DNA of 64,000 bases from Bacilli bacterium (GCA_900770925.1 CAAGLY010000013.1:182-64181), one strand, 5' to 3'. Positions 1 to 64,000 are shown, counted from the stretch's first letter. Numbers and translations are program-made. The notes: a model not told the origin generated them from the letters alone.

Positions 1-231
1 GGTAGATAGAGTCAACAATTTTTTTCAAAATCTTTTAAAAATATTTTTCAAGAAGCAAAAAAGCCCGATTTTTCGGTCGTTTTTCGGAATTTATTTTTTT
101 GAAAATATTCTTCTATGGGTGGTTTTTTAGCTACTGAGTGATTGTTTTTCCTCTGCTTTTCCTCTCTTTTACAGAGATAGGAATTTCAGGGCCGTTTTTT
201 GCTATATATATATTGTTATTTATAAGCAATG

Positions 232-258
232 AAAAACCCCGGCTTTTATCGGCCGGGG
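232..258 (-). terminator. intrinsic terminator after rpiB
   Basis: Stem ccccggc (237-243) pairs with gccgggg (252-258). The A-run at 232-236 on + gives a U-tract on -. It lies 13 nt past the rpiB stop. Confidence 0.6.
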
Positions 259-270
259 TCTAAGAGACAT

Positions 271-714
271 TTAGTGTGTTTTTTCGTAGTCGAGCATCCT
301 ACTGACGCGGACGTCATGGCGTCCATGCCTCGGTTCAGCAGCTAAGAAGATATCGATCCGGCGGAGGATGTCCTCTTTGGACCTATATTTTGCACCGAAA
401 GTAATGACCTTTGCATGGTTATGTTCAACGAGAAGCTTAGAGACTTCATCATTGTATCCGACTCCGGCTAATATTCCGGTTACTTTATTCGCTGCCCTGG
501 CAACGCCTTCGCCGGAAGAACAGACGAAGATTCCTTTATCGGCCTTGTGGTCGCGGATAGCTTCGGCAGCCGGGATAGCAAAAGCAGGATAGTGGCAGGA
601 TTCTTCGCTGTCCGTACCGAAATCGAGGATTTCGATTCCTTTTTCCTGAAGATGGGAAAGAATTGCTTCTTTCCTTATATAACCGCCATGGTCACAGGCA
701 AAGGCAATTTTCAT
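271..714 (-). CDS. rpiB: ribose-5-phosphate isomerase B (RpiB/LacAB family)
   Basis: 147 aa with the MKIAFACDHGG N-terminus and overall RpiB/LacAB family pattern. The tsaC(ywlC)-rpiB neighbourhood matches Bacillus. Confidence 0.85.
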   Translation of the reverse strand: MKIAFACDHGGYIRKEAILSHLQEKGIEILDFGTDSEESCHYPAFAIPAAEAIRDHKADKGIFVCSSGEGVARAANKVTGILAGVGYNDEVSKLLVEHNHAKVITFGAKYRSKEDILRRIDIFLAAEPRHGRHDVRVSRMLDYEKTH

Positions 715-729
715 GTCTGTTTTCTCCCT

Positions 730-1344
730 TTATTTTCCGAAATAGGCTTTGTCGATTTCTTCTTTGGTGATGTCACCCTGGCGGATGACTATCGGAGCAT
801 CCTTAGTCAGGTCGACGACGGTAGTCGGTGTTCCGCTCTGGCATTTTCCTTCTACGAGTCCTTCGACATACGGGGAATCCTTGAAGATGTCAATAACTTC
901 TTCTTCGCTCTTGACGGAAGGCTGTCCGGATAGATTAGCGGAGGTAACCTGCAGTGCAAAAGGAAGACAAGAAAGGAAAGCAAGGAGTTCCTTCTTCCCA
1001 GGAATACGGATTCCGGCAACGTAAGTCCCGAGATGGGTCTGATACGGGGCGTTTTCCTTTGCTTTGACAAGAACGGTCAAAGGTCCGGGAAGGAATTTGT
1101 CCCTAACCCGTTTAATACTAGGAGTAATCTCAAAGTATTTTTCTAACGGGAAATCGGCTGAACACATTACGGCAATCGGCTTTGCCGGAGAGCGTCCTTT
1201 CGCTAAGTCAAGAAGCTTATAGGCCTCCTCACTATCGAAACGGATGCCAAGTCCATAGACCGTCTCCGTCGGAAGGGCTAAGACCTTCCCCTGTTCTAGA
1301 ATCTCTTTTGCTTTTCCGTCATGAAAGGATTCAAGGATCAGCAT
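730..1344 (-). CDS. tsaC: L-threonylcarbamoyladenylate synthase (TsaC/YwlC/Sua5 family)
   Basis: 204 aa with LPTETVYGLG, TSANLSGQP and GTPTTVVD motifs of the YrdC/Sua5 fold. Confidence 0.85.
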   Translation of the reverse strand: MLILESFHDGKAKEILEQGKVLALPTETVYGLGIRFDSEEAYKLLDLAKGRSPAKPIAVMCSADFPLEKYFEITPSIKRVRDKFLPGPLTVLVKAKENAPYQTHLGTYVAGIRIPGKKELLAFLSCLPFALQVTSANLSGQPSVKSEEEVIDIFKDSPYVEGLVEGKCQSGTPTTVVDLTKDAPIVIRQGDITKEEIDKAYFGK

Positions 1345-1347
1345 AGT

Positions 1348-1942: not shown

Positions 1943-4597
1943 TTATTCCTTATGGCTTTCGTCGTTCTTTGTATCTGTTTCCGGAGAAACTTCCTTGGCC
2001 TCTTCAGCCTTAGGAGTTTCTTCCTTCTTTGCCGGAGCAAATTCCTTCTCTAAATGGTGGACGGTTTCATCATCAGTCGTGATGAGAAGAACCGGAACAC
2101 CGGCATAGGATTCAAGGTGAGTAGCAAAGGATTCCCTAGACCTAGAGACATTCCTTACTTTTCCGTAGTCAAGGAACAGCCTTCCGATATGGCTCGGATC
2201 AGCTGCGCCATGGACACAGGCTTCCTTGAACTCATTGTCGCCGATCGGGTTTCCATGCGCAGTGGCAATGACTAAGACTAAGCGGGAAGGATGTCCTTCT
2301 AAGACTTTATCGATACCGAGATAGTAATAGTTGAATCCTGGATAAAGAATGATGTCTTTCGGATTCTTCGGCTCTGCCTTGTCCTGCCTCTTATGCTCAT
2401 CGACAGGCGGGAGCTTACGGTTCTTCAGAAGGTAGTCGATTTGATCGGAAGTGATGGTTTCGTTCTTGATTAAGGTTTCGGCAATCAGTTCAACATCGGC
2501 ACGATGCTCTTCTAAGAGCTTGCGGCACTGTTCATGGCAGTCATTGATAATCTTGCGGACAGCCGTATCGATCTCAAAGGCAACCTGAGTGGAATAATGG
2601 GCACTGGAAGAAGTATAGTCACGTCCTAAGAAGACGCTTCCTTCCGGTTTCTCATACTGGATAGGACCTAAGTCGCTCCTTCCGTATTCGGTAACCATGC
2701 TACGGGCAATGTTGGTGGCGACCTCAATATCATTGGAAGCACCGGAAGAGACATCGCCAAAGAAGATTTCCTCGCTGGTCCGTCCGCCTAGGTAACCGGT
2801 GATACGGGCAAGCCTCTGGTTCTTTGTCCTGAGGAACCGGTCTTTTTCCGGTGTCCTTAAGACATGGCCGCCAGTACGTCCGCGGGGAACAATGGTAATC
2901 TTCTGGACCTTATCCGAATAAGGCAAGAAGATACCGACGACGGCATGGCCGGCCTCATGATAGGCGACCTGACGTTTTTCGGCCGGATCAAGATGAGATC
3001 TCTTCGCCGGACCGGCAATAGCACGGTCGATGGCCTCATCGATATCGGAAGTGGTGACGGCAGTACGGTTATTACGGACAGCTAAGATAGCGGCATCATT
3101 CCTGATGTTCGCTAAGTCAGCGCCGGAAAAGCCGACTGTACGGGTAGCAATCGAATCGAAGTTGACATCCGGAGCAATCTTCTTATTGCGGGAATGGACA
3201 CGGAGAATAGCGGCACGTCCTGCCTGATCAGGAAGGTCGACCGTAATCGTACGGTCGAAACGTCCCGGACGGGTAAGAGCAGGATCAAGGACATCGGCAC
3301 GGTTAGTAGCTGCGATGACAATGATTCCGGAGTTGTCTTCGAAACCATCCATTTCAACAAGCAATTCGTTTAAAGTCTGCTCGCGTTCATCGTTTCCGCC
3401 ACCCAAACCGGCACCGCGCTGACGGCCGACAGCATCGATTTCGTCGATGAAGATCAGGCACGGAGCATTGGCTTTCGCATTCTTGAATAAGGAACGGACA
3501 CGGCTGGCACCAACACCGACATACCTTTCCACGAAGTCAGAACCGGAGATGGAATAGAAAGGAACATTGGCCTCGCCGGCAACTGCCTTTGCTAATAAGG
3601 TCTTACCGGTTCCAGGCGGGCCGACTAAAAGGACACCATGAGGGAGCTTGGCTCCTAAACGGGTGTATTTATCGGCATTTTTGAAGTAATCGACTAATTC
3701 GACAAGTTCAGCTTTGGACTCATCGCATCCGGCAACATCGGAGAAGCGGACTTTGGATTTTGATGTCTTACGGGCAAGATTGTCGACAAATCCGCCCATC
3801 GGGTTTCCGCCCTGGCCAAGGCCTTTGCTCCTGCGGGAGAAAAGGAAGAAGAAGAGGGCACCGATTAAGACTAAATAGATAACCGGCCTGACCCAGGAGA
3901 GATTGCTTGTCTTCTCTAAGGAGTAGGAATAGGAAACGCCGGAATTGTAGTAATCGACATAAGCGCCGTTGTCGTTCTGGATCTTCACATAGTTGACAAT
4001 CGGCCTAACGTAATGTTCGAACTCTTTGGTGGTAATCTGAACAGTGAAAGAATAGCTTCCTTTCTTCGCAATAGAGAAAGAACCTTTCAGATAATACAGA
4101 TCAGACCTTTCATTGCTCTTGACGACAGAAAGGACAAGATTCTGGTAGTTAGAAGGATTCAGGAGAATTTTCGCTAATGCTCCTTCATTCTTAGTCACTT
4201 CGCCAAGAGTCTTGATATCTTCCTCCTGAGCAAGCTGCTGATAATTGGAAAAATCCGGATAGCCATTCGAATCGGTATCGATCTTGCCGTCTTTATTAAC
4301 ATCGACAGCATAGTAGATATCCTTATTCGTATAGCCTAAAGATGTCGACCGCCTCTTAAATCCGAAGAAATAGATCCTCCTAGAAACGATAGCAATGAAG
4401 ACAAGGGCAAGAACCACAATTCCGCCAAAGCCTTTCTTCTGCTTTGGGCCATTATTGCTGCCCTGTCCAAACGGATTTCTGTTATCGGGAGAATTCTTCT
4501 TCGGCGGCTGCTGATCATCATCCGAAAATTCCCTAAGGGTCTGTTCCTTTCCCATAAAGGAATAGGTCAGGTTTTCGACTTTTTCGGGTTTTGCCAT
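1943..4597 (-). CDS. ftsH: ATP-dependent zinc metalloprotease FtsH with long ectodomain and extra C-terminal domain
   Basis: 884 aa with Walker [17 protein letters not shown] region [19 protein letters not shown] and Zn site HEAGHA. It has two TM segments. SD TAGGAGGT lies 6 nt before the ATG. Confidence 0.93.
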
Positions 4598-6635: not shown

Positions 6636-6711
6636 TGGTGGAGCTGACGAGGATCGAACTCGCGACCTCCTCCATGCCATGGAGGCGCTCTCCCAGTTGA
6701 GCTACAGCCCC
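6636..6711 (-). tRNA. tRNA-Ala (anticodon GGC)
   Basis: The reverse complement folds as a cloverleaf. The acceptor GGGGCTG/CAGCTCC has G3:U70, the anticodon arm is CCTCC-ATGGCAT-GGAGG, the T-loop is TTCGATC, and CCA is encoded. Confidence 0.93.
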
Positions 6712-15549: not shown

Positions 15550-15568
15550 AGCAGAAAAGGAACGGGAA

Positions 15569-51087: not shown

Positions 51088-51104
51088 TTTCTAATTTCTC
51101 CTCT

Positions 51105-52598: not shown

Positions 52599-52626
52599 TC
52601 TTTCTTCCTCCTTCATCATTGAAGAA

Positions 52627-52654
52627 GGGATGCTATGAAGATTCATAGCATCCC
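52627..52654 (-). other. perfect 12-bp intercistronic hairpin between the binding-protein gene and mglA
   Basis: gggatgctatga (52627-52638) pairs with tcatagcatccc (52643-52654) around a 4-nt loop. No U-tract follows. Confidence 0.6.
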
Positions 52655-52677
52655 TCATTTTCTTGCTTATCGGCAGA

Positions 52678-53790: not shown

Positions 53791-53845
53791 ATTTTTTCTC
53801 CTTTTTGTTTTTCCTCAAGGGGGCGTTCAATAAGACTGGCCATCC

Positions 53846-53874
53846 TTAAGCGCTTAAATTCTAAACCGCTTACA
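53846..53874. promoter_or_regulatory. cre/LacI-family-operator-like sites in the mgl promoter region
   Basis: There is a palindrome ttaagcgcttaa (53846-53857). Next to it, tctaaaccgcttaca (53860-53874) reads TGTAAGCGGTTTAGA on the minus strand, overlapping a TAGAAT -10 candidate. Confidence 0.35.
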
Positions 53875-54013
53875 TAAATTAAAAAATGGAAAAAACAACA
53901 CTGAAATTGAAAAAATCTACACACAAACAAACATTCAAAGACAAAAATTCCACTTTTTCTCTGTTTGCTTCTCTAACCTTATTAATAGGGAAAACTTGAA
54001 AATGAATCCCCTT

Positions 54014-55027
54014 TTACAAATTGCTCAGAATTTCCCCCTGAACATAAACCGTGTATTCGTTTGCCCTTGTCTCGGTAAAATCATCAGGAAGTGCCTTATT
54101 GTTGAGAAGGCAGTCAGCAATCTCAACGCAGGTCTTCGCCTGCTTTTTTTCTTCGTTTTTCACCGTTCCGGAAAGCAAACCTTTCTGCCTATACTGAATG
54201 CCGATATCCGTGCCATCGACACCGAAAACAGGGAAAGGAAGAGAGTCAGAGGGATCATCGGAAACAAGGTCGTTCTCAATCAGATAGTCGACCGCACCAA
54301 TTGCCCTATCATCATTGTTGGAAAGCACCAATTCAATCTTGTCTCCGAACTGCTCGTACCAGTCTTTCCTGATAACCTTTGCCTCATCGCGGCTCCAGTT
54401 GCAGTAACTAGAAGCAAGGATCTCGGTCTGATAGCCATCCGTTTTTAAGGTATTCAGTACCGAATTGCTTCTCTTCTCTGTATCCTGATTTCCGATTTCG
54501 CCCTTTAATAGGACAAGCTGAATCACACCGTCATGATTTTTATCGTATTCGGAAAACAGTCCGTCCTCTGTTTTAAAGAGGGTTTCTACCCTCTTTGCCT
54601 GGCTACTCCCCTCAAAGAGAGGATCCGTTCCGACAAAGAAGATATTCTTATTCGTCTTCCGTCCGCGGATCCTATCCGCATCAAGAGGCTGACGGTTAAA
54701 GAAAATAACCGGAATATCTTTTTTGGAGACTTTATCGATAATCGCGCCGGAAGAAAGCCGGTCGACAAGGTTGATGAACCTCCTCTTGCTGTTCCCGCTG
54801 TCCCTAGCATCCACAATCGATTCGTTCTGCTGAATCTGAGAATTCGAGGCGTACTTCACGCTATAGGAGTATCCTTTCCCATCTAATTCAGCCTGGAGCG
54901 CGTGGTTCAGAGACCTGATGAAGGTATCGTTCTCGTTATAGATGAAGACGGATGCCTCCGTCTTCTTCTCTCCGCACGAAACAAGAAGAAAGAGACAAGA
55001 TAAAAGTAAGTAGCTTCTATTCTTCAT
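54014..55027 (-). CDS. type I periplasmic-binding-protein lipoprotein (canonical MglB-like order), sensor partner of the adjacent kinase
   Basis: 337 aa with lipobox LVSCG. The motifs VFIYNENDTF, IPVIFFNRQP, FFVGTD, LSNNDDRAIGA, VFGVDG and GLLSGTV occur in the canonical order. Its start overlaps the kinase stop by 11 nt. Confidence 0.75.
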   Translation of the reverse strand: MKNRSYLLLSCLFLLVSCGEKKTEASVFIYNENDTFIRSLNHALQAELDGKGYSYSVKYASNSQIQQNESIVDARDSGNSKRRFINLVDRLSSGAIIDKVSKKDIPVIFFNRQPLDADRIRGRKTNKNIFFVGTDPLFEGSSQAKRVETLFKTEDGLFSEYDKNHDGVIQLVLLKGEIGNQDTEKRSNSVLNTLKTDGYQTEILASSYCNWSRDEAKVIRKDWYEQFGDKIELVLSNNDDRAIGAVDYLIENDLVSDDPSDSLPFPVFGVDGTDIGIQYRQKGLLSGTVKNEEKKQAKTCVEIADCLLNNKALPDDFTETRANEYTVYVQGEILSNL

Positions 55028-56741
55028 TGTCTTTCACCTCCGAAAGCGGAATATTTATTTCAATCCTCGTTCCGTCATCGGGTGAGGATTCAATCTTGAT
55101 GTCTGCTTTTTCTCCGTAATAAATGCGTAAACGCTGATAGACATTCGAGATTCCTACTCCGTTATGGATGTTCTTATCCTTCCTGGATTTCTTGATCTCT
55201 TCCAGCTTCTCCGGAAGGATTCCGCATCCATTGTCCTTAATGGTGAACTTAAGGAAACCTTCCTGGGTATATCCTTTGATGAAAATCCTGGCCTTATGGT
55301 CTGTCGTCTCCCCAAAACCATGGACGATGGCGTTCTCGACAATCGGCTGAAGAATCAGCTTGATAATCGGAAGGTTCCTGATTTTATCCTCAGCATCAAT
55401 CTCAAAGCCGAACGTCTCTCCAAAGCGCATCTTCTGAATCTGAAGATAGTATTTGACATGGCTTAGTTCATCCTTGACCGGAATGATATTCTTTCCCCGG
55501 GAGATTGAGATGCGGAAGAAACGGGAGAGAGCCACAATCCTATTCTGTGCCTTCTCCTTTTCGTCTTCATCAATCAGATAGATGATAGAATCAAGGGTGT
55601 TATAGAGGAAATGCGGATTAATCTGATTCTGTAAAGCTCTTAATTCCGCTTTATTCCTTTCTTTCTGTTCTTCTAGAATCTCCGTTGCCAGGTTATGGAT
55701 TTTATTCCTCCTCTTTTCAAAGGAACGGTTAAGAGACTCGATTTCCTTAGTTCCCTTCTTATCAAAGCTGCTCTGAATCTGGAAATCGAGGTTCTCAACG
55801 TTTTCCCTCTCTTTCTGAAGACGGACAAGAGGAGTGGAAATCTGCGTAGAGACCAAGAAAAAGATGAAGAGGAAGACAAGTAAGATAACCAAAGAATAAA
55901 TACCGCAGTTAATCAGGAACGTTTTCTTTGTTTCATATAGTTCATTTATGTTTGTTTTTATAGCAACTCTCCATCTTGTCTTTGGAATGGTTGAAATAAA
56001 AAGAAAGAAGGAGTCTCTGCTTTCTTCATATGACGTGCTTCCGATAACTGTATCGGAGATTATCTTCTTTTCCTTATCCGTGACCGTCCCCGAGCAATAG
56101 ACAAGCCGGCCGTCATTATCGTAAATATAGACATGTCCGCCTTTTCCAAGGCGGGTCTCATCAATGATAGAGGCAATCGAGTCGAACTGATAGACAATAT
56201 GGATAACGGCAACGTTCTTGCCGTTATCGTATTCAAAATATTTTGAAACATTGAACAGAGATGCCGAATCCACACGGGAAAAGACATTTAAGGAAGGAGT
56301 AGTAAAAGAAGCGATGAACCAGTTTTCCAGTCTTACTTCCTCCTTGCTTTTTTCGTTTTTGAAGTTGCTGGATGAGGCAATCAGATTACCCTGTTCATCA
56401 AAAAGAGAAAGAGAGCTGATAGAAGGCGTGATGATACGGATTTCATCAAAGAAATTATCCGCTGTTTCCGTGATGGTTTCCTCTGTTTCATTCACTAGGC
56501 GTTTCTGAATGGCATCAGAGGCATTGACGACTTCACTGATATAGTTAGAATAATTCGAGATTGCCTGTTCTGAGGTAGAAACAACCTGTTCCCTGTAGGT
56601 GTTCTCCACATTACCGGAATAGGTGAAGGTAACAATCCTGAACCTTCCGGCAATTAAAAAGAGAAAGCTGATAACAAAGACAGTAAATAGCTCCGTCTTT
56701 AAAGACAGACGGCTATGAAAGCTTCTTTTTCCGGTAGTCAT
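55017..56741 (-). CDS. sensor histidine kinase (YesM/LytS-type His_kinase plus HATPase_c) with extracellular sensor domain
   Basis: It has two TM helices flanking an ectodomain of about 270 aa, then LQNQINPHFLYNTLDSI (the His box of the His_kinase family), and ENAIVHG and DNGCGI (N and G boxes). The start is set at the ATG at 56741 (MTTGKRSF), overlapping the regulator gene by 29 nt. Confidence 0.8.
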   Translation of the reverse strand: MTTGKRSFHSRLSLKTELFTVFVISFLFLIAGRFRIVTFTYSGNVENTYREQVVSTSEQAISNYSNYISEVVNASDAIQKRLVNETEETITETADNFFDEIRIITPSISSLSLFDEQGNLIASSSNFKNEKSKEEVRLENWFIASFTTPSLNVFSRVDSASLFNVSKYFEYDNGKNVAVIHIVYQFDSIASIIDETRLGKGGHVYIYDNDGRLVYCSGTVTDKEKKIISDTVIGSTSYEESRDSFFLFISTIPKTRWRVAIKTNINELYETKKTFLINCGIYSLVILLVFLFIFFLVSTQISTPLVRLQKERENVENLDFQIQSSFDKKGTKEIESLNRSFEKRRNKIHNLATEILEEQKERNKAELRALQNQINPHFLYNTLDSIIYLIDEDEKEKAQNRIVALSRFFRISISRGKNIIPVKDELSHVKYYLQIQKMRFGETFGFEIDAEDKIRNLPIIKLILQPIVENAIVHGFGETTDHKARIFIKGYTQEGFLKFTIKDNGCGILPEKLEEIKKSRKDKNIHNGVGISNVYQRLRIYYGEKADIKIESSPDDGTRIEINIPLSEVKDNEE

Positions 56742-58308
56742 CCGGTGACCTTCCCGTGTACTTCTTAAAACAGTGCGAGAAATAATAAGGATCCGCATAG
56801 CCGACGTCTCTCGCAATGGTGATAATCCGGTTATTCGCATTCGAAAGCAGATCAAGCGCCTTCTTCCTTCTAAGTTCCGTCATCCTCTTAGTGAATGATT
56901 TTCCGTTTTTCTTTAGAATAGCGGAAATGTAACTAACAGAATAAGCAAGCTCATTAGCAACATCATCAATAGACAGACCAGGATTCGTGAAGTTTGCTTC
57001 TAAGAATTTCTGTATCCGTTCATAGGAGGATTCAAGTCCGGAAAGACGCTTGGATTCATTGACTTTGATTACCCGCTCTGCAATCTGATAATAGTACTCA
57101 ATTAACGAAGTGGGCGTCTTTATCCGATAGAGAGTGTCCCTGATTTCAATATGAGAGTCGAATCCTAGGTAGAAATCATTGAGGGAGATACAGGCTTTGA
57201 GGAGAGCATCAAGAATGTTCGAGAGAATGTAGTTATAGTTTTCCTTATACTGGGGGGTAGAAATCTGTAGGATCAGCTTCTTGATTTTCTCTTCTGCCTC
57301 TTCCTTCTTCCCGTAAGAGAGAAAGTAAGTAAGGTTACGGTATTCGTTCTCATCGACCTTGCCGCTGTTCCCGCTATCATTCTCCTCTTTCTCTAAGTCC
57401 GCAAAAGAAAAGACCATGTTCTGTCCTAAGACAGTCCGGTATTCAAGAGAACGTTTGGCATGGCGGAACAGTTTCCGGTAGTTAATCGGTTTTTCCCTGA
57501 TATCGCTGACACCGCAGGAGATTGAGATATTTCCTCCGCGTTTCACCCTAGCTAAGATACTATTCAGAGATAGAATCAGCTCTTCGCCATTCACCTTCTT
57601 ATCACTTTCTAAGAGAAGGACAAACTGGTTATCGTTCAGGAACTGATAATAGGTAAACCGTCCGTCTCCGAATTCCTTATCGATATTCTTCTTCAGGAAG
57701 AAGTAGAAAAGATCCTGCTGTTCGAATCCAAGGTCCTCCTTATCGGAATCAAAGACAATAATCCTCTGATACTCGTGATTAAGATCAATTCCGTCCTCAA
57801 CAAGTTTTCCGTTGAAGTTATCACTGATTTCCTTCACTTTAATCAGAAGATTCAGATCTTCAGACTGAAGGAAGCGAACAGAGTCCCTTGCTTTCTGTTC
57901 CAGATTCTTCCTGTTCCTATCCTTGTGATACTGATTATCGAGAATTTCCTTTGCTTTATTCAGCGTAGAAAGAAGCTCATCCTTAAACACCGGCTTAGTC
58001 AGATAGCCGACCACTCCCAAGGAAATGGCTTCCTTAGCATAGTCAAAGGAATCATATCCGGAAACAATGATGGACTGAATCAGAGGAAGTTCCCTTTTGA
58101 AGTGCTTGATCAGATCAATTCCATCGACATACGGCATGCGGATATCCGTGATCAGGATATCCGGAGCCAAAGAGATTCCGTTCTCCGATGCATCGTATCC
58201 ATTCTCAAAACAGCCAACGACCTCAAACTGGTCGCTGAGCTTAGTCAGAATCGATTTCAATCGGCTTCGGACAGACTCTTCGTCATCCGCAATAATTACC
58301 CGGTACAT
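56713..58308 (-). CDS. response regulator with AraC-type HTH output (YesN-like)
   Basis: 531 aa with a receiver domain (VIIADDE, DILITDIRMP, TKP) and a C-terminal HTH_18/AraC domain (GYADPYYFSHCFKKYTGRSPDDYR). Confidence 0.85.
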   Translation of the reverse strand: MYRVIIADDEESVRSRLKSILTKLSDQFEVVGCFENGYDASENGISLAPDILITDIRMPYVDGIDLIKHFKRELPLIQSIIVSGYDSFDYAKEAISLGVVGYLTKPVFKDELLSTLNKAKEILDNQYHKDRNRKNLEQKARDSVRFLQSEDLNLLIKVKEISDNFNGKLVEDGIDLNHEYQRIIVFDSDKEDLGFEQQDLFYFFLKKNIDKEFGDGRFTYYQFLNDNQFVLLLESDKKVNGEELILSLNSILARVKRGGNISISCGVSDIREKPINYRKLFRHAKRSLEYRTVLGQNMVFSFADLEKEENDSGNSGKVDENEYRNLTYFLSYGKKEEAEEKIKKLILQISTPQYKENYNYILSNILDALLKACISLNDFYLGFDSHIEIRDTLYRIKTPTSLIEYYYQIAERVIKVNESKRLSGLESSYERIQKFLEANFTNPGLSIDDVANELAYSVSYISAILKKNGKSFTKRMTELRRKKALDLLSNANNRIITIARDVGYADPYYFSHCFKKYTGRSPDDYRKKKLS

Positions 58309-58488
58309 GTATTTCCTTTGAATCCGTTGATTTCCTTCTAGTAGAGATTATACGGCATAAAGGGCTTTCTGTGCAGAAAAACGCCTGTTTTCCTCTGTTT
58401 CGGAAGAACAGAGTTTAAACAGCTCTCTTCTTTCAATTCGAAAAACATCCAGACTTTCTTAGAAAGATACACAAGAAGAGAAAAGCTA

Positions 58489-58517
58489 TTCAAGAAAGCG
58501 GTTAGATGTTTTATAGT
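58489..58517 (+). promoter_or_regulatory. candidate galKT promoter overlapping a cre-like box
   Basis: TTCAAG (58489-58494), a 17-nt spacer, then TATAGT (58512-58517). The spacer contains AGAAAGCGGTTAGA, which has 2 mismatches to TGAAAGCGGTTACA-type cre sites. SD AGGAGA lies 9 nt before the ATG. Confidence 0.4.
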
Positions 58518-58543
58518 ATCATTCGGATTAGGAGAAAATTTTC

Positions 58544-59707
58544 ATGGATCTGAATCAACTCATTAAATCATTTGAAACAACATTCCCAGAAGCAGGAGAG
58601 CCTCGGTTATACAGGGCTCCCGGACGGGTGAACCTCATCGGAGAACACATCGACTATAACGGAGGACATGTCTTCCCCTGCGCCTTAAGCGTCGGAAACT
58701 ATGGCGTAGTCTCTGACCGCGAAGACAAAGAACTTCATCTCTTCAGCGAAAACTTCGCTGATAAAGGCATCGTCATTTCCGATATCGGTTCCATCGAATA
58801 CAGAAAAGAAGACGGCTGGACCAACTATGTCAAAGGCGTGGTCAAGGCCTTCCTTGATCACGGACACAAAATCAGCCATGGTTTTAATATCTATGTCAAA
58901 GGAAATATCCCCGGTTCCGGATTATCTTCAAGCGCTGCCTTGGAAGTCCTTGCTGCCACGATCCTCAATGACACGTTCTCCTTCGGATTAGACGGAACGA
59001 CAATCTCCCTCTATTCCCAGGAAGCCGAGAACAAGTTCTGTGGCAGGAACTGCGGAATCAGGGATCAGTTCGCTTCGGCAAACGGAAAGAAGGATAGGGC
59101 ACTTTTCTTAGACTGCGCTACGCTTAGCTGCACCTATGTCCCTCTCCATCTCAAAGGATATAAGATTATCGTTACAAACTCCAATAAGCCTCATAACTTA
59201 GTCACTTCCCACTACAACGACCGCAGAAAAGAGTGCGAGGAAGCTCTTCATGACTTACAGAAGGAACTGAAGATCAAGAACCTCTGTGAACTCACACCGG
59301 AAGAATTCGGAAAACATGAGCATCTGATCAAGAACGATATCTGCCGTCAGCGTGCCAGATTCGCTGTCGAAGAGGAAGACCGGACAAAGAAAGCCGTTGT
59401 TGCTCTTCAGAATGATGACCTTCTCACTTTCGGCAGACTGATCAACGAATCCGGAGACGGACTACGTTATGCCTATGATGCCACCTGTAAAGAAATCGAC
59501 ATCCTTGTCGATGAGGCAAGAAAACAGGATGGATGCATCGGTTCCCGTGAGACCGGAGGAGGTTGGGGAGGTAATACGATATCCATCGTCAAAGAAGATA
59601 AAGTCGATGCGTTTATCCTGAATGTAGGCAAAGCCTATAAGGAAAAGAGCGGACTGAGAGCAGACTTTTCCCTGCTTGATGTCGACGATGGCGGAAAGAG
59701 GCTCTGA
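58544..59707 (+). CDS. galK: galactokinase
   Basis: 387 aa with GRVNLIGEHIDYNGG, GSGLSSSAALEV and CGI-(AGG)-DQ (the GHMP/galactokinase signatures). Confidence 0.95.
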   Translation: MDLNQLIKSFETTFPEAGEPRLYRAPGRVNLIGEHIDYNGGHVFPCALSVGNYGVVSDREDKELHLFSENFADKGIVISDIGSIEYRKEDGWTNYVKGVVKAFLDHGHKISHGFNIYVKGNIPGSGLSSSAALEVLAATILNDTFSFGLDGTTISLYSQEAENKFCGRNCGIRDQFASANGKKDRALFLDCATLSCTYVPLHLKGYKIIVTNSNKPHNLVTSHYNDRRKECEEALHDLQKELKIKNLCELTPEEFGKHEHLIKNDICRQRARFAVEEEDRTKKAVVALQNDDLLTFGRLINESGDGLRYAYDATCKEIDILVDEARKQDGCIGSRETGGGWGGNTISIVKEDKVDAFILNVGKAYKEKSGLRADFSLLDVDDGGKRL

Positions 59708-61215
59708 TGAATATCCACTCTAGTATCAAGAAGCTGGCTTCCTATGCCTTAAACAAGCAGCTGATCAGTCAAGAAGAGTATTACTACAGCATCAACCTTC
59801 TTTTGGATGTCCTTGATTTAGATGAGTTCGAAGATGACGGAAAAGAATACAGGAATGTCTCTTTGGAAGAGACATTAACAGAAATACTTGATTACGCCTA
59901 CGAAAAGAAAATCCTCAAGGAAAACAGTGTCGTCTATCAGGATCTGCTAACCGCGAAAATCAGGAACTGTTTTACTCCCCGTCCGGATGAAGTGGTCCGC
60001 AAATTCAATGAACTAGAAAAAGTCGGTTCTGAAAAGGCAACTGATTATTTCTATAACCTATCCATCAATAGCGACTATATCAGGTCTTATCGTATTGAGA
60101 AAGATCTCAGCTGGAAGACACCCTCTCCATACGGAGATTTAGATATCACCATCAATCTTTCTAAACCGGAAAAAGATCCTAAAGCCATCGCTGCTGCAAA
60201 GTTGAGGAAACAGACGAGCTATCCAAAGTGCTTCCTCTGCAAAGAGAACAGGGGATACCGGGGCACCCTTACTCATCCGGCAAGAGAAACAATCCGATAC
60301 ATTCCGCTCAAATTATCCGGAGGAGACTATTATCTCCAGTACTCGCCTTACTCTTATTATCCAGAGCACTGCATTGTCTTCAACAAAGAACATATCCCTA
60401 GGATAGTCAACCGGAAGACCTTCGAGCACTTAGTGGACTTTGTCGACCTTTTCCCGCATTACAGGCTTGGTTCTAACGCAGACCTTCCTATCGTCGGAGG
60501 AAGTATCCTGACTCACGATCACTACCAAGGCGGGAGATATATCTTCCCGATGTTCTTAGCAAAGGATGTTTTCTCTTTCACGTTCAAAGGATATGAAAAC
60601 ATTAAGGCAAGCTATCTTTACTGGCCTCTTTCCGTTATCCGTCTGAAAGCAGAAAACAAAGAAGAACTCATCAATCTCTCTGATAAGATTCTGAACTGCT
60701 GGCGTGAATATAGTGATGAGAGCTGCTTCATTCTCGCTCACACAGACAGCACTCCTCATAACACAATCACTCCTATTCTTCATAAAGAAGGAAACGAATT
60801 CATCAGGGATTTGACTCTTAGAAACAACATCACGACAGAACAGTATCCATTAGGTGTCTACCATCCGCATCAGGAATACTGGAACATCAAAAAAGAGAAT
60901 ATCGGTCTTATCGAAGTCATGGGCCGTGCTATTCTTCCTTCCCGTCTGAAAGAGGAAAGGAAAATCGTTGCAGAAAGGGTCAAAGACGGAAAAGACCTGA
61001 ACGAGAATCCAAGTGTTGCAAAGCATACTTCTTGGTTAAACCAGTTCCAGGATCGTTTCAACGGAAAACAAAGCCTAAAAGAAATCGATTCTATCTTGGA
61101 AGAGGAAATCGGTCATACCTTCCAACATGTCCTTGAATGTGCCGGTGTCTATAAGCAAAACGAAGAAGGATATGAAGGCGTAAAGCGTTTTATCCAGTTC
61201 GTCAACAAAGACTAG
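59707..61215 (+). CDS. galT: galactose-1-phosphate uridylyltransferase (type 2, Gram-positive form)
   Basis: 502 aa. The length and motifs (KCFLCKEN, YYPEHCIVFN, LTHDHYQGG) are typical of the roughly 500-aa GalT family. Its start overlaps the galK stop (TGATG). Confidence 0.9.
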   Translation: MNIHSSIKKLASYALNKQLISQEEYYYSINLLLDVLDLDEFEDDGKEYRNVSLEETLTEILDYAYEKKILKENSVVYQDLLTAKIRNCFTPRPDEVVRKFNELEKVGSEKATDYFYNLSINSDYIRSYRIEKDLSWKTPSPYGDLDITINLSKPEKDPKAIAAAKLRKQTSYPKCFLCKENRGYRGTLTHPARETIRYIPLKLSGGDYYLQYSPYSYYPEHCIVFNKEHIPRIVNRKTFEHLVDFVDLFPHYRLGSNADLPIVGGSILTHDHYQGGRYIFPMFLAKDVFSFTFKGYENIKASYLYWPLSVIRLKAENKEELINLSDKILNCWREYSDESCFILAHTDSTPHNTITPILHKEGNEFIRDLTLRNNITTEQYPLGVYHPHQEYWNIKKENIGLIEVMGRAILPSRLKEERKIVAERVKDGKDLNENPSVAKHTSWLNQFQDRFNGKQSLKEIDSILEEEIGHTFQHVLECAGVYKQNEEGYEGVKRFIQFVNKD

Positions 61216-61236
61216 CCAATCATCACCGAAAGAAAG

Positions 61237-61260
61237 GCCGCCCTACAAGGCGGCTTTTTC
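61237..61260 (+). terminator. intrinsic terminator after galT
   Basis: Stem gccgcc (61237-61242) pairs with ggcggc (61249-61254), followed by TTTTT. Confidence 0.65.
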
Positions 61261-61296
61261 AAAAAAATTCCGGAAGAGGGTGCCCGGAACTTTTTT
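61261..61296. terminator. second, bidirectional hairpin terminator between galT and rhaD
   Basis: Stem ttccgg (61268-61273) pairs with ccggaa (61284-61289), flanked by an A-run (61261-61267) and a T-run (61291-61296). Confidence 0.5.
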
Positions 61297-61321
61297 GTGT
61301 TCCATCGTATTCTATAGATTA

Positions 61322-62173
61322 TTAATGATTTTCTTTTACAGAAAGGAAATCCCAGCGAACAATATTTTCGAGTTTAAAGAGATGAATCAGCTCTAACCTA
61401 TTTTCGTCCGTGATGGTGTTAATAATTTTCCGTTCACCAATCAGGTTGTAGATCTGTGCTGCTTTTTCAACAGTTTCAATCAAACCGAAAGTTTCATCCA
61501 GAGTCTTACCAGCCCCATAAATACCATGTCCTGCCCAGACAACAATGCGGAAGCTCTTCCTCTTTTCAGCAGTGGCCTGACCAATCGAATCGGTTCCACA
61601 GAGCATCCAAGGAAGAACACCAACCCCTTCTGGATAAACGACGATGCATTCGGTAGACCTCTGCCATAAAGTATGCGAGAACTTAGCTTCATCCAGTGGA
61701 TGGACATAGGTCCTTGCAAGAAGGTTCGTCGGGTGGCAATGCCTGACAACACGATGCTCTGGATCTTTTTCAAGACGTGCCCTATGGGACATCAAATGGG
61801 CAGGAAGCTCGGAAGTAAATCTTCCACCATCTTTATATCCCCATAAGAGTTCGGCATTCTGTCCGTCTTTGGCAATGCGGATGATTCCAACATTGTTTTC
61901 CGGATCTCCTTCGATGTTCTTCAAATACTTTCCTGTACCTGTGACTAAGAAAATCTTTCCTGCTAGTTTGCTTGCATTTAAAGAAGAACGATTTACGCCA
62001 GCAAAAGGAATCACACGGATAACATGATTCAAATCCAAGTATTCCTTTACTTCCTCTTCTTTCAACAGATAGGAAATATTTCCACCATTTCTTTCATCCC
62101 ATCCAAGGCGGTACCTATTCGATGCCGTCTTCTCAAACTCGACTAAAAAAGGTGCTTTTAAAATATCTTTCAT
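61322..62173 (-). CDS. rhaD: rhamnulose-1-phosphate aldolase (class II aldolase family)
   Basis: 283 aa. GWDERNGGNIS, HCHPTNL and GHGIY are typical of RhaD. It is adjacent to rhaA and rhaB. Confidence 0.85.
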   Translation of the reverse strand: MKDILKAPFLVEFEKTASNRYRLGWDERNGGNISYLLKEEEVKEYLDLNHVIRVIPFAGVNRSSLNASKLAGKIFLVTGTGKYLKNIEGDPENNVGIIRIAKDGQNAELLWGYKDGGRFTSELPAHLMSHRARLEKDPEHRVVRHCHPTNLLARTYVHPLDEAKFSHTLWQRSTECIVVYPEGVGVLPWMLCGTDSIGQATAEKRKSFRIVVWAGHGIYGAGKTLDETFGLIETVEKAAQIYNLIGERKIINTITDENRLELIHLFKLENIVRWDFLSVKENH

Positions 62174-62176
62174 TTT

Positions 62177-63442
62177 TTATCTCCGTTTCGATAAGACATC
62201 ATTTTCATACCGAATTGCTTCCGTATAGTAGTCTTCTTCTAATCCCTGGCGAAGCAGATATTCCTGCCAGATTGCAGAGAAGGGAAGCCTCTTTGCTCTT
62301 TCCTGTAGGAACCTAAGTTTCGAGAAGTCTGCTTCATCCTGAAGGGTTTTCCTCTCTTCATTGGGAAGTGTAGCAGCATAGAGAAGTGCTTTCTGCCTAG
62401 ACCGTTCGCCAGTGACCCATGCAATAATACGGTTGATAGAGGCATCGAAATAATCCAGTCCGATAATGACTCTCTGATCCGCATGATTCCGGATGATTTC
62501 TTTTGCGACTTCTTTTAATTCATCATCAAAGAGAACAACGTGATCGGAATCCCAACGGACAGGACGTGAAACATGAAGAGCAACCTTATCATGGAAGGCA
62601 AGAAGAGCAGAGATCTTGTCCGAGACATACTCTGTCGGATGATAGTGTCCCCTGTCCCTCAGACAGGAAATATGGTTCCTAGCAGCATAGTTCTGATAGA
62701 ATTCATTGCTTCCGACCGTAAAGGATTCCAGTCCAATACCAAAAGTCTTCGATTCAACAGCCGGGAGAACATATTTCTTATCATAAGGATAAGAAAGAAT
62801 TTCATCTAAGGACTTCTTTAAACGAAGACGTGGATTCAAACGATCCGCAGGAACATCCTTATAGCCATCTGGAATCCAGATATCCATTAAGGCCTGGGTA
62901 TGGAACGCTTTTCCTAATTCCTCTGTGATCTTAAGACAGGAAATACCATGCCGGACCCAAAACTCACGGACATTCTCATTTGGAGAAGATAAGGTCAGAT
63001 TATCTTTCACCATCGGATGTGAAAAATAAGTCGGATTAAAGTCTAAACCTGCTAAGCCGATTTCCTTTCCAAACTCAATCCATGGCTTGAAGTAATCAAT
63101 GGTGTACTCATCACGGTCCACCTTTCCTTTATCCTTTCCTAAGAAGGCATAGGAAGCATGAAGATTCAAGCGTTTGACACCTGGCCTTAAAAAGAAAGCC
63201 TCTTTGATATCTGCCCTAAGTTCTTCTGGTGTCCGGGCACGTCCTTTGTAATTTCCCGTTGTCTGGATTCCACCAGCAAGAGAATCCGAACCATCAAATC
63301 CTAAAACATCATTGCCTTGCCAGCAATGAACAGAGACCGGAATCTTAGCGACACGTTCTATCGCCTTCTCCGTATCAATTCCGAATTCAGCATATTCTTT
63401 CCTTGCTTCCTGGTAATTCTTCTCAATCTGTTCTTTATTCAT
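62177..63442 (-). CDS. rhaA: L-rhamnose isomerase
   Basis: 421 aa with VSVHCWQGNDV.GF and HVSRPVRWDSDHVV motifs characteristic of RhaA. Confidence 0.9.
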   Translation of the reverse strand: MNKEQIEKNYQEARKEYAEFGIDTEKAIERVAKIPVSVHCWQGNDVLGFDGSDSLAGGIQTTGNYKGRARTPEELRADIKEAFFLRPGVKRLNLHASYAFLGKDKGKVDRDEYTIDYFKPWIEFGKEIGLAGLDFNPTYFSHPMVKDNLTLSSPNENVREFWVRHGISCLKITEELGKAFHTQALMDIWIPDGYKDVPADRLNPRLRLKKSLDEILSYPYDKKYVLPAVESKTFGIGLESFTVGSNEFYQNYAARNHISCLRDRGHYHPTEYVSDKISALLAFHDKVALHVSRPVRWDSDHVVLFDDELKEVAKEIIRNHADQRVIIGLDYFDASINRIIAWVTGERSRQKALLYAATLPNEERKTLQDEADFSKLRFLQERAKRLPFSAIWQEYLLRQGLEEDYYTEAIRYENDVLSKRR

Positions 63443-63444
63443 TC

Positions 63445-64000
63445 TTATTCTCCTTTATGAATTACTTTTTGATAAGACTCATATTTTTGTTTCCAATCTT
63501 CAACATCTTCCGGATAGAAGATCTGGCTATCAATAGACCTTCCAATCGCTTCTCTAGCTTCTACCCTGTTTTTGTAGACGCCATGATGAAGAAATTGACA
63601 TACACTATTTCCAAGAACAGTCGACTCACTGGAACCAGTCACTACTCTTCTTGCTAAAGAATTCGCCGTATACTGATTTAGAACGGAGGCTTGATTCCCG
63701 CCTCCGACAATCAATAGGGAATCTAGTTCCTGGCCTGTCAGAGCCAGAAGCTTATCGAAGATTGTCTTATAGGCAAGTGCCATAGAAACATAAATCCTCT
63801 TCCTCCTTTCACCAGGAGAGGCGGGCTTCTTCTGACCCGTCTTTTCAAGATAAGAATCAATTTTTCTTAGCCTGTCACCTGGTGTTTCAAAAAGCGGATC
63901 ATCCACATCAAGATAGGAATCCATATCCCCTGCCTTAAGAACTAGATCCTTGATTTCACTAACGGAAATCGGAATACCTTTTTTCTCGTAATCCTTTCTT
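63445..64000 (-). CDS. rhaB: rhamnulokinase (FGGY family), C-terminal part; the gene continues beyond the window
   Basis: The frame is open to the window edge. IVGGGNQASVLNQYTANSL...V.TGSSESTVLGN is the FGGY C-terminal domain. The gene sits next to rhaA and rhaD. Confidence 0.8.
   Translation of the reverse strand, partial: RKDYEKKGIPISVSEIKDLVLKAGDMDSYLDVDDPLFETPGDRLRKIDSYLEKTGQKKPASPGERRKRIYVSMALAYKTIFDKLLALTGQELDSLLIVGGGNQASVLNQYTANSLARRVVTGSSESTVLGNSVCQFLHHGVYKNRVEAREAIGRSIDSQIFYPEDVEDWKQKYESYQKVIHKGE

What the first reader, a model, noticed from the sequence alone, without database searches (positions are those of the whole stretch)
1..64000. AGG is decoded as methionine rather than arginine (sense-codon reassignment) throughout the window
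Wherever the supplied standard-code translation shows an R derived from AGG, homologous families have an invariant or near-invariant Met or a hydrophobic residue. Invariant Arg positions are written with CGN.

Codons I read directly from the DNA:
- atpD 19311: VRCIS-AGG-GSTEG, family IAMGS.
- atpD 19404: LG-CGC-AGG-FNVLGE.
- atpD 19722: YYE-AGG, family HEM.
- atpD 19770: FGQ-AGG-NE.PG, family GQMNEPPG.
- atpD 19794: CGT-AGG-CGT, family ARMRV.
- atpD 19821: GLT-AGG-AEYFRD, family GLTMAEYFRD.
- atpD 19929: [16 protein letters not shown], family [12 protein letters not shown].
- atpA: 17126, 17369, 17450 and 17465.
- galK 59060: CGI-AGG-DQ, family GIMDQ.
- ftsH 2678-2680, minus strand: EYG-AGG-S, family EYGMS.
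- rnj 31315-31317, minus strand: GEY-CGC-AGG-L, family GEYRML.

In atpD there are 10 AGG and only 3 ATG codons, and the other 20 Arg are all CGN. AGG therefore appears to be the majority Met codon.

Stops look standard. rsmD/coaD share an ATGA overlap at 34147-34150, galK/galT share TGATG at 59705-59709, and Trp is TGG. This is not the Mycoplasma code.

From memory, an AGG-to-Met code was inferred computationally (the Codetta screen of Shulgina and Eddy, 2021) for a clade of uncultivated Bacilli. This contig looks like a member or relative of that clade.

Consequence: every table-11 protein from this window, including the ORF track, is wrong at each AGG. None of the four tRNA genes here has a CCU anticodon, so the decoding tRNA lies elsewhere in the genome.
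Basis: partly seen in the sequence, partly recalled or inferred. Interest (0 to 1): 0.95.

Follow-up and report, generated by a model that had tools for sequence, protein, structure and literature searches.

The report
AGG codon read as methionine
This piece of an uncultivated human-gut bacterium (genus Candidatus Enterosoma) uses the codon AGG for methionine instead of arginine; the change is real, but it was published for this clade in 2021, so the window is one more example of a known alternative genetic code.

Summary
All 14 cited AGG codons are in frame. Across 61 ORFs AGG is 23.8 per 1000 codons and internal ATG only 6.0.

A Codetta-style tally against 80 standard-code genomes puts AGG on Met columns (log-odds +76 for Met, −141 for Arg). 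Every other well-sampled codon recovers table 11. In three close standard-code Enterosoma relatives the window's AGG aligns with Met in 143 of 303 cases and with Arg in 1.

Against a second recoded species (~78% nucleotide identity), AGG exchanges only with ATG (16 + 6 times) and never with CGN or AGA. AGA exchanges with CGN, so it is still Arg. E. coli and PDB comparisons extend the result to both ends and the middle of the window.

The decoding tRNA is not in the window. An identical tRNA(CCU) with A73, G2:C71, C3:G70 and U20 lies on 21 contigs with recoded flanks. One of those contigs shares an assembly with a 99.8% copy of the window's right end.

This is the AGG→Met code of Shulgina and Eddy (2021), so it is already known. 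New side observations: ATG is retained mainly where AGG would be flanked by G, and one atypical gene has AGG at a basic-residue position.

The parts
1..64000 (.). Coding sequence written in a code where AGG = Met: 448 in-frame AGG against 112 internal ATG in 61 ORFs. Only AGG deviates from table 11.
   Evidence: Codon counts. Per-gene counts show AGG >= ATG in nearly all genes. Codon-to-residue tallies.
14393..20978 (+). atp operon (atpB-E-F-H-A-G-D-C). It supplies the 63 AGG columns of the 80-genome tally. atpA is 16721-18223 and atpD is 19131-20558.
   Evidence: Pfam content of the identical contig. tblastn against 80 genome loci.
30808..32514 (-). RNase J gene with 15 AGG codons. In 117 standard-code relatives these positions are M 0.63, L 0.16, T 0.09, I 0.07 and R 0.01.
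1943..4597 (-). ftsH. The 8 AGG codons aligned to E. coli FtsH face Q, M, V, F, A, L, F and S, with no Arg.
40261..42378 (+). Type III glutamine synthetase. The 8 AGG codons face M, M, I, L, M, L, K and L in PDB 3O6X. AGA faces R in 5 of 7 and CGT faces R in 8 of 10.
49384..63924 (.). Sugar ABC transporter, galK/galT and rhaD/rhaA/rhaB genes. The AGG codons aligned to E. coli orthologues are mostly M, L, V, I or A.
6636..6711 (-). tRNA-Ala(GGC). Together with tRNA-Ser(UGA) 13637-13728, tRNA-Val(GAC) 13791-13866 and tRNA-Thr(GGU) 36318-36391 it makes up all tRNA genes of the window. None has a CCU anticodon.
11620..12876 (-). AAA_14/DUF4143 ATPase gene of atypical composition (GC3 0.32; AGA 12, ATG 5, AGG 2). 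The AGG at residue 35 faces K, R, R, K, K and Q in six homologues. It may be a recently acquired gene that still carries a donor-code Arg codon.
28374..29819 (-). Two genes with no Pfam match and low GC3 (0.31-0.35), in which ATG outnumbers AGG. They are absent from the syntenic locus of the sister recoded species, so they are probably an insertion.

Best explanation
[quoted passage not shown] It translates AGG as methionine and all other codons as in table 11. AGA and CGN remain arginine, ATG remains methionine and the start codon, and TAA, TAG and TGA remain stops.

Inferred mechanism: AGG is read by a dedicated tRNA with anticodon CCU. This tRNA has lost the arginine determinant A20 and carries the methionine determinants A73, G2:C71 and C3:G70, so MetRS charges it rather than ArgRS.

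Inferred history: ancestral Arg-AGG codons were replaced by CGN. AGG then spread by synonymous ATG->AGG change until it became about 80% of internal Met codons.

Shown here: the codon-level signal, the AGG/ATG synonymy, the retention of AGA as Arg, and the existence and sequence of the tRNA in this clade. Inferred, not shown: charging of that tRNA with Met, its presence in this exact genome, and the order of evolutionary events.
For: (1) Composition. AGG is 23.8 and internal ATG 6.0 per 1000 codons. Reading AGG as Met restores ordinary Met and Arg contents.

(2) Tally against 80 standard-code genomes, 63 AGG columns. The majority residue is M in 21, L in 17, I in 7 and R in 2. Mean R frequency is 0.03. 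Log-odds are Met +76.3 and Arg -141.5. All other well-sampled codons recover table 11.

(3) Three close standard-code relatives (AtpD 81-86% identical). The window's AGG faces ATG in 53/105, 63/129 and 27/69 cases. Pooled residues are M 143, L 59, I 35 and R 1 of 303. Their own AGG (Arg) faces CGN in the window.

(4) RNase J. The 15 AGG positions are M 0.63 and R 0.01 in 117 relatives, whereas CGN positions are R 0.73.

(5) Sister recoded species GCA_037313815.1 (20 genes, 4563 codons, ~78% nucleotide identity). Window AGG faces AGG 103 times, ATG 16 times and no Arg codon. Window ATG faces AGG 6 times. CGN and AGA interchange freely with each other but never with AGG.

(6) E. coli orthologues at both ends of the window. 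Of 84 aligned AGG, 18 face M, 16 L, 8 V and 3 R. CGT faces R in 39/63 and AGA in 9/23. PDB 3O6X covers the middle of the window.

(7) An identical 77-nt tRNA(CCU) lies 13 nt upstream of tRNA-Arg(CCG) on 21 distinct contigs whose ORFs are AGG-rich and ATG-poor. It folds as a cloverleaf with G1-G7 paired to C66-C72, A73, and the D-loop AGCAUGGUA, which gives U20. The neighbouring tRNA-Arg(CCG) has A20. One such contig, ERZ28576020 scaffold_269, is in the same assembly as scaffold_272, which is 99.8% identical to window 52-64 kb.

(8) Codon usage matches the published recoded genomes: AGG 209-235, AUG 59-69 per 10,000, with CGU the top Arg codon.
Against: There is no peptide-level evidence here, and none was found in the papers read. 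The tRNA(CCU) gene is not in the window and was not recovered from the window's own assembly (ERZ27229687), so the link to this genome is by co-occurrence and clade membership only. C35 departs from the A35 methionine determinant, so charging by MetRS is inferred from other identity elements. tRNA-Arg(UCU) could read some AGG by wobble, so a minority of Arg incorporation cannot be excluded. Two of the 63 AGG columns are Arg-majority, and one AGG in an atypical gene sits at a basic position.
Confidence: 0.95

Rival explanations
1. AGG is decoded ambiguously: mostly Met through tRNA(CCU), with an appreciable share of Arg through wobble reading by tRNA-Arg(UCU).
For: The 2021 paper raises this possibility and notes reduced AGA use in the clade. 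AGA is still used at 8.7 per 1000 in the window, so a tRNA(UCU) must be present. ATG-coded Met sit in more Met-conserved columns than AGG-coded Met: 0.58 against 0.30, and 11/22 against 18/84 versus E. coli.
Against: AGG occupies invariant Met columns of AtpD, such as 19722 and 19770 with Met in 80/80. AGG makes up 80% of internal Met codons, which is hard to reconcile with frequent Arg misincorporation. The difference in conservation is also expected from mutational neighbourhoods, because AGG can be reached in one step from Lys, Thr, Ser and Arg codons.
Confidence: 0.1
2. AGG still means Arg, and the lineage has replaced most of its methionines and many hydrophobic residues with arginine.
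For: None beyond the formal possibility. Table-11 ORFs remain open.
Against: It would put Arg at universally invariant Met positions and in hydrophobic cores of every protein examined. It would give proteins with 0.4-0.7% Met. It cannot explain why AGG exchanges with ATG 22 times and with the five other Arg codons 0 times between two recoded species. It does not explain a tRNA(CCU) lacking A20.
Confidence: 0.01
3. AGG is reassigned to another hydrophobic amino acid (Leu or Ile) rather than Met.
For: Leu and Ile are the second and third commonest residues at AGG columns.
Against: Log-odds are Met +76.3 against Leu -11.9. The same spread of L, I and V is seen at the window's ATG columns. Within the clade AGG interchanges with ATG and only sporadically with Leu or Ile codons. 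The tRNA carries MetRS determinants.
Confidence: 0.02
4. The pattern is a sequencing or assembly artefact, for example a systematic T->G error in ATG.
For: None.
Against: DNA that is 99.97-100% identical to the window was assembled independently from many samples and several studies. ATG is kept at gene starts and at 20% of internal Met codons. A diverged species shows the same code.
Confidence: 0.005

Closest known systems
AGG->Met code of a clade within GTDB genus UBA7642 (Candidatus Enterosoma): Shulgina and Eddy 2021, eLife 10:e71402 (PMC8629427). Re-detected in bioRxiv 10.64898/2026.04.02.715157 and discussed in PMC13092985.
   Same: The same codon and the same new meaning. AGG dominates over AUG (published 209-235 against 59-69 per 10,000; window 238 against 60). 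CGU is the preferred Arg codon and AGA is retained as Arg. The tRNA(CCU) has A73, G2:C71, C3:G70 and no A20, lies directly upstream of tRNA-Arg(CCG), and is identical across genomes. The habitat (primate gut) and the nearest standard-code relatives are the same.
   Different: Nothing in kind. The paper listed three species from baboon and human faeces. Here the protein flanking the tRNA defines at least four lineages (98, 84, 67 and 59% identity) that share the identical tRNA. The window differs by about 22% in nucleotide sequence from another recoded MAG, GCA_037313815.1. Whether the window belongs to one of the three published species was not resolved. Its codon usage is nearest to UBA7642 sp002297045, but its GC content is 0.438 against 0.458-0.462. 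Identical DNA occurs in human gut metagenomes of the Fiji cohort PRJNA217052.
AGG->Met in some green-algal mitochondria (Noutahi et al. 2019, as cited in PMC8629427)
   Same: The same codon is reassigned to the same amino acid.
   Different: That is an organellar genome of a eukaryote and an independent event. Nothing here suggests an organelle: the window has a bacterial atp operon, ftsH, rnj, sugar operons and Shine-Dalgarno motifs.
CGG->Trp in another RFN20 lineage (Candidatus Onthovivens) and in Anaerococcus; CGG->Gln in Peptacetobacter (PMC8629427)
   Same: They are Arg-codon sense reassignments in Bacillota, and one is in the same order.
   Different: A different codon is involved. In the window CGG behaves as Arg: R 0.57 in close relatives, best log-odds for Arg, and exchange with CGT, CGC and AGA in the sister species.
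Mycoplasma/Spiroplasma code (table 4, UGA = Trp)
   Same: It also occurs in a wall-less or reduced Bacilli-related lineage, and some MAGs of this clade are labelled 'Mollicutes'.
   Different: In the window UGA ends 6 ORFs, including the rsmD/coaD and galK/galT overlaps. Conserved genes are full length with UGA as stop, and Trp positions are TGG.

Membership tests
AGG->Met recoded clade of Candidatus Enterosoma (UBA7642) | AGG codons align with Met-type (Met and nonpolar) columns of conserved proteins, which is the Codetta criterion | tested here: met
   At 63 columns the log-odds are Met +76.3 and Arg -141.5. RNase J: M 0.63, R 0.01. E. coli: M 18 and R 3 of 84. PDB 3O6X: 0 Arg of 8.
AGG->Met recoded clade of Candidatus Enterosoma (UBA7642) | AGG is the dominant Met codon (published AGG 209-235 and AUG 59-69 per 10,000) and CGU is the preferred Arg codon | tested here: met
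   Window values are AGG 238, internal ATG 60, CGT 116, CGC 73, CGG 72, CGA 18 and AGA 87 per 10,000, compared with the published table.
AGG->Met recoded clade of Candidatus Enterosoma (UBA7642) | AGG and AUG are used interchangeably within the clade | tested here: met
   Against GCA_037313815.1: AGG to ATG 16 times, ATG to AGG 6 times, AGG to any Arg codon 0 times. In RNase J, P0002 and P0003 have M at some of the window's AGG positions, and P0002 has R at the window's ATG position.
AGG->Met recoded clade of Candidatus Enterosoma (UBA7642) | AGA is kept as Arg | tested here: met
   AGA exchanges with CGN (11) and AAA (12) in the sister species. It faces R in 9/23 positions in E. coli and 5/7 in PDB 3O6X.
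AGG->Met recoded clade of Candidatus Enterosoma (UBA7642) | The genome encodes a tRNA(CCU) with Met identity elements (A73, G2:C71, C3:G70), without A20, next to tRNA-Arg(CCG) | tested here: inconclusive
   The gene is not in the window or in the 9.4 kb beyond its end. An identical gene with exactly these features is on 21 contigs with recoded flanks. One of these contigs is in an assembly that also holds a 99.8% copy of window 52-64 kb. That is co-occurrence, not physical linkage.
AGG->Met recoded clade of Candidatus Enterosoma (UBA7642) | Phylogenetic position inside genus UBA7642/Enterosoma | tested here: met
   Tested by nearest neighbours only, with no tree built. The best standard-code AtpD locus is 'Candidatus Enterosoma sp.' at 86%. 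The RNase J relatives at 77% are named Candidatus Enterosoma sp.. Enterosoma is the name given to UBA7642. The two nearest RNase J clusters, at 95% and 86%, are themselves recoded.
AGG->Met recoded clade of Candidatus Enterosoma (UBA7642) | Met is actually incorporated at AGG (protein-level proof) | not testable with these tools
   No proteomic data are available. None is reported in the papers read.
Table 4 (UGA = Trp) Mollicutes-type code | In-frame UGA at Trp positions | tested here: not met
   UGA terminates 6 ORFs and takes part in two stop/start overlaps. Conserved genes are full length with UGA treated as stop.
CGG->Trp or CGG->Gln recoded Bacillota | CGG at Trp or Gln columns | tested here: not met
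   CGG has best log-odds for Arg, faces R at 0.57 in close relatives, and exchanges with other Arg codons.

The most novel reading that the evidence does not exclude
The recoding has left a secondary, previously undescribed constraint. The remaining ATG Met codons are not random leftovers. They are retained by selection where AGG would be flanked by G, plausibly to avoid Shine-Dalgarno-like GAGG/GGAGG strings inside genes. In addition, the recoded clade is wider than the three species of 2021: at least four lineages share one invariant tRNA(CCU), and this human-gut lineage may be an undescribed species.
Probability: 0.3. Interest if true: 0.45.

Novelty: already known. Interest (0 to 1): 0.3.

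Why it matters
Practical consequence: every table-11 translation from this organism is wrong at about 2.4% of residues. Such mistranslated proteins are already in public protein collections. The RNase J clusters of this clade, for example, are stored with 0.4-0.7% Met. Gene calling, homology searches, structure prediction and metaproteomic searches for this gut lineage need a custom code.

Biological context: this is one of very few sense-codon reassignments in free-living bacteria, and an advanced one, because the reassigned codon has become the majority codon for its new amino acid. The window adds nothing fundamental to the 2021 description.

It does show that the code is carried by abundant human-gut strains. 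It also shows that one invariant tRNA serves lineages as far apart as about 78% nucleotide identity. Finally, it offers two testable side observations: context-dependent retention of ATG, and a possibly mis-coded acquired gene.

Tried and rejected
(1) The genome-contig scan with AtpD returned 80 loci, none of them recoded. The loci were used as outgroups instead.

(2) I looked for the tRNA next to the window. The source contig extends about 26 kb past the window end. The 9.4 kb I could reach holds no tRNA.

(3) I could not recover the tRNA locus from the window's own assembly, ERZ27229687. Look-ups work by exact protein sequence only and all 12 are used.

(4) I had recalled PRJNA217052 as a baboon data set. 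That was wrong: it is the Fiji human cohort.

(5) Classifying the tRNA(CCU) by similarity to Met or Arg tRNAs was uninformative. Only two tRNA(CAU) genes and no outgroup Enterosoma tRNA-Arg(CCU) were among the held loci. The published claim that it descends from an Arg tRNA therefore stays untested here.

(6) A scan of viral contigs for the tRNA found nothing.

(7) Two explanations for the flanking-G effect were rejected. It is not a general G|AG junction bias, because AGY and AGA are not avoided after G. It is not a genome-wide depletion of GAGG or GGAGG.

(8) No second reassignment was found. ATA, CAA and AGA look noisy only because they are rare and sit at poorly conserved positions.

(9) The protein from 63445-63924 is not on record under my start codon.

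(10) The third homologue search was not spent, because the answer was already clear.

Full report
OBSERVATION

The window holds about 61 long ORFs on both strands. It has four tRNA genes: Ala-GGC, Ser-UGA, Val-GAC and Thr-GGU. atpD has exactly 10 AGG, 3 ATG, 20 CGN and 0 AGA. The ATGA (34147-34150) and TGATG (59705-59709) stop/start overlaps are real.

Over 18,805 codons, AGG is used 448 times (23.8 per 1000) and internal ATG only 112 times (6.0). The other Arg codons are CGT 218, CGC 137, CGG 135, CGA 34 and AGA 163. Stops are TAA 35, TAG 20 and TGA 6. Read with table 11, the proteins would have 6.0% Arg and 0.6% internal Met. With AGG as Met they have 3.65% Arg and 3.0% Met, which are ordinary values.

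INDEPENDENT TEST OF THE MEANING OF AGG

I fetched 80 genome loci around AtpD homologues (64-86% identical). None shows AGG-rich, ATG-poor usage, so all serve as standard-code outgroups. I aligned the window's proteins to them by tblastn. I then tabulated, for each window codon, the residues in columns covered by at least 20 genomes.

- The 63 AGG columns, all in the atp operon, have mean frequencies M 0.30, L 0.21, I 0.13, V 0.08 and R 0.03.
- The majority residue is M in 21 columns, L in 17, I in 7 and R in 2.
- A Codetta-like log-odds score gives Met +76.3, Leu -11.9 and Arg -141.5.
- Every other codon with a reasonable sample returns its table-11 meaning.
- Individual cited columns are strongly Met, for example 19722 and 19770 with Met in 80/80.

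CLOSE RELATIVES

Three standard-code relatives are the closest: a 'Candidatus Enterosoma sp.' MAG and two unnamed Bacilli/Firmicutes MAGs, with AtpD 86, 85 and 81% identical.

- They have ATG opposite the window's AGG in 53/105, 63/129 and 27/69 aligned codons.
- Pooled residues are M 143, L 59, I 35 and R 1 of 303.
- Their own AGG codons (Arg) face CGT, CGC or CGG in the window.
- All seven cited atpD codons are ATG in all three relatives.

A search with RNase J gave 117 standard-code relatives at 71-78% identity. In these the 15 AGG positions are M 0.63, L 0.16, T 0.09, I 0.07 and R 0.01, while CGN positions are R 0.73. The same search gave two closer clusters (95% and 86%) that are themselves Met-poor.

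The DNA of the 95% cluster comes from MAG GCA_037313815.1. It is only about 78-79% identical to the window in nucleotide sequence, so it is a different species. Over 20 shared genes and 4563 codons:

- Window AGG faces AGG 103 times, ATG 16 times and an Arg codon 0 times.
- Window ATG faces AGG 6 times.
- CGN and AGA interchange freely with each other and never with AGG.
- AGA exchanges with CGN (11) and AAA (12), so it is still Arg.

This synonymy pattern is the strongest single result. AGG and ATG form one class, and AGA plus CGN form another.

REST OF THE WINDOW

E. coli K-12 orthologues were fetched for ftsH, gal, rha and mgl. They give 84 aligned AGG facing M 18, L 16, V 8, A 7, I 6 and R 3. 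CGT faces R in 39/63 and AGA in 9/23. Type III glutamine synthetase against PDB 3O6X gives M, M, I, L, M, L, K and L at its 8 AGG codons, and R at 5 of 7 AGA codons. No other codon deviates. The signal therefore covers the left end, middle and right end of the window.

ORIGIN

DNA identical or nearly identical to the window occurs in many independent gut-metagenome assemblies. One is a 90-kb ENA contig that contains the whole window. Several others come from PRJNA217052, which is the Fiji human cohort. This rules out an assembly artefact.

THE DECODING tRNA

No tRNA(CCU) lies in the window or in the 9.4 kb beyond its end. From the features described in the 2021 paper I built a pattern. It specified a CUCCUAA anticodon loop, a T-loop, G70-C71 and A73, followed within 30-60 nt by the anticodon loop of a tRNA-Arg(CCG). 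I scanned the metagenome collection with it.

Eight of the 22 hits carry an identical 77-nt tRNA(CCU), a 13-nt spacer and a tRNA-Arg(CCG). Their flanking ORFs are AGG-rich and ATG-poor, for example 111 against 30 and 82 against 33.

The tRNA folds into a canonical cloverleaf. Read from the sequence:

- G1:C72, G2:C71, C3:G70, C4:G69, G5:C68, G6:U67 and G7:C66, with A73.
- D-loop AGCAUGGUA, which gives U20.
- A 5-bp anticodon stem and anticodon CCU.

The adjacent tRNA-Arg(CCG) has A20. These are exactly the published features.

The 609-614-residue protein next to the tRNA has no Pfam domain and only five homologue clusters, all Met-poor. Contigs for four of them, at 98, 84, 67 and 59% identity, were fetched. 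Those of the first three carry the identical tRNA. The 59% form is the same gene as on the scan contig L118, which also carries it. In all, 21 distinct contigs hold this tRNA.

One of these contigs, ERZ28576020 scaffold_269, comes from the same assembly as scaffold_272, which is 99.8% identical to window 52-64 kb. The codon usage of that lineage is also the closest to the window's. This is co-occurrence, not physical linkage. But since every lineage has the same tRNA, the inference that the window's genome has it too is strong.

COMPARISON WITH WHAT IS KNOWN

Shulgina and Eddy (2021) reported AGG->Met in eight genomes of three species within GTDB genus UBA7642. They gave AGG at 209-235 and AUG at 59-69 per 10,000 codons, CGU as the preferred Arg codon, and the tRNA described above. 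UBA7642 was later named Candidatus Enterosoma. Later work re-detects the reassignment and takes it as established.

The window's values (AGG 238, ATG 60, CGT 116, CGC 73, CGA 18, CGG 72, AGA 87 per 10,000; GC 0.438) fall in the published range. They are nearest to species UBA7642 sp002297045. I could not decide whether the window belongs to that species or to a further one. Either way this is the known code in the known clade, so the novelty class is 'already known'. No protein-level confirmation was found in the papers read.

RIVAL EXPLANATIONS

- Proteome-wide Met->Arg replacement under the standard code is contradicted by the invariant Met columns, the AGG/ATG synonymy and the tRNA.
- Reassignment to Leu or Ile is contradicted by the log-odds and by the specific exchange with ATG.
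- An artefact is excluded by the independent assemblies.
- Partial ambiguity, with some Arg inserted through tRNA(UCU) wobble, cannot be excluded without proteomics.

SIDE OBSERVATIONS

(a) The choice between AGG and ATG depends on context. I excluded the first 30 codons and pooled the window with other recoded loci.

- ATG is 35% of Met codons after a G, against 12-14% after A, C or T (p = 2e-12).
- ATG is 29% before a G, against 10-17% otherwise (p = 5e-10).
- After CG, GG or TG it is 47-65%, but after AG only 15%.
- The effect holds within genes: Mantel-Haenszel odds ratio 4.2 for a preceding G, and 8.7 for preceding CG, GG or TG.
- It also holds at Met positions conserved in standard-code relatives: 45 AGG to 3 ATG with no flanking G, against 8 to 5 and 16 to 5 with one.
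- It is not a general G|AG junction bias, nor a genome-wide k-mer depletion.
- Sites that keep ATG would pair better with a canonical anti-SD sequence if they were AGG: mean -6.45 against -5.49 kcal/mol, p = 5e-4. The difference lies entirely within the preceding-G class.
- Canonical SD motifs are enriched upstream of the window's genes: GGAGG in 12/61 against a 1.3% background.

Avoidance of internal SD-like strings is therefore a plausible but unproven cause. The AG|AGG exception remains unexplained.

(b) The gene at 11620-12876 (AAA_14/DUF4143) has atypical composition. One of its two AGG codons faces K, R, R, K, K and Q in six homologues. This would fit a recently acquired gene that still carries a donor-code Arg codon. 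It rests on a single codon.

(c) Two low-GC3 genes at 28374-29819 are absent from the syntenic locus of the sister species.

(d) ATG is over-represented in codons 2-16 of my longest-ORF calls, 13 ATG to 9 AGG. This most likely reflects over-extended N-termini.

VERDICT

The phenomenon is striking but already published. Confidence that AGG is read predominantly as Met in this organism is about 0.95. Interest as a new finding is low to moderate, at 0.3.

Noticed in passing
whole window, plus recoded loci L094, L098, L118, L123, L127, L130, L132: Residual ATG Met codons are concentrated where AGG would be flanked by G. ATG is 35% of Met codons after G against 12-14% otherwise, and 47-65% after CG, GG or TG but only 15% after AG. 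The within-gene odds ratio is 4.2-8.7. Sites that keep ATG would bind a canonical anti-SD sequence more strongly if they were AGG. The cause is not established.
   Followed up: partly
window 11620-12876 (-): An AAA_14/DUF4143 ATPase gene has atypical composition (GC3 0.32; AGA 12, ATG 5, AGG 2). The AGG at residue 35 faces K, R, R, K, K and Q in six homologues. It may be a recently acquired gene with a donor-code Arg codon that would now be read as Met.
   Followed up: partly
window 28374-29819 (-): Two ORFs with no Pfam match and low GC3 (0.31-0.35), in which ATG outnumbers AGG, lie between the Maf gene and the 132-residue gene. The sister recoded species (L098) has these two neighbours directly adjacent, so this is probably an insertion.
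   Followed up: partly
L105, L109, L115, L116, L118, L121, L123, L125-L131, L134-L143: One invariant 77-nt tRNA(CCU), a 13-nt spacer (two variants...ATTATCA and ...ATTCTCA) and a tRNA-Arg(CCG) lie on 21 contigs. A tRNA-Leu(CAG) lies just beyond the adjacent 609-614-residue clade-specific protein, which has no Pfam domain. That protein splits the recoded clade into at least four lineages (98, 84, 67 and 59% identity), more than the three species of 2021.
   Followed up: partly
L118 8000-11500 and 12234-13103; L129-L131 1-826: In two lineages the tRNA(CCU) locus has extra genes nearby. L118 has about 3.5 kb of small ORFs between the 612-residue gene and the tRNA. An AbiEii toxin (type IV toxin-antitoxin) gene lies downstream in L118 and in L129-L131. 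The tRNA locus may be a hotspot for insertions.
   Followed up: no
window ORF starts (first 16 codons of the 61 ORFs): ATG is over-represented among Met-type codons 2-16 of the longest-ORF calls: 13 ATG to 9 AGG, against 99 to 439 elsewhere (p = 4e-5). The most likely reason is that true starts are internal ATGs. AGG shows no sign of being used as a start codon.
   Followed up: no
public protein collection (P0001-P0003, P0121-P0125): Proteins of this clade are stored translated with the standard code, with 0.4-0.7% Met and R at AGG positions. Database entries for this lineage are systematically wrong.
   Followed up: no
window-wide 4-mer statistics: GATC (observed/expected 0.51) and GGCC (0.54) are the most under-represented tetranucleotides, which suggests restriction-modification pressure.
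   Followed up: no
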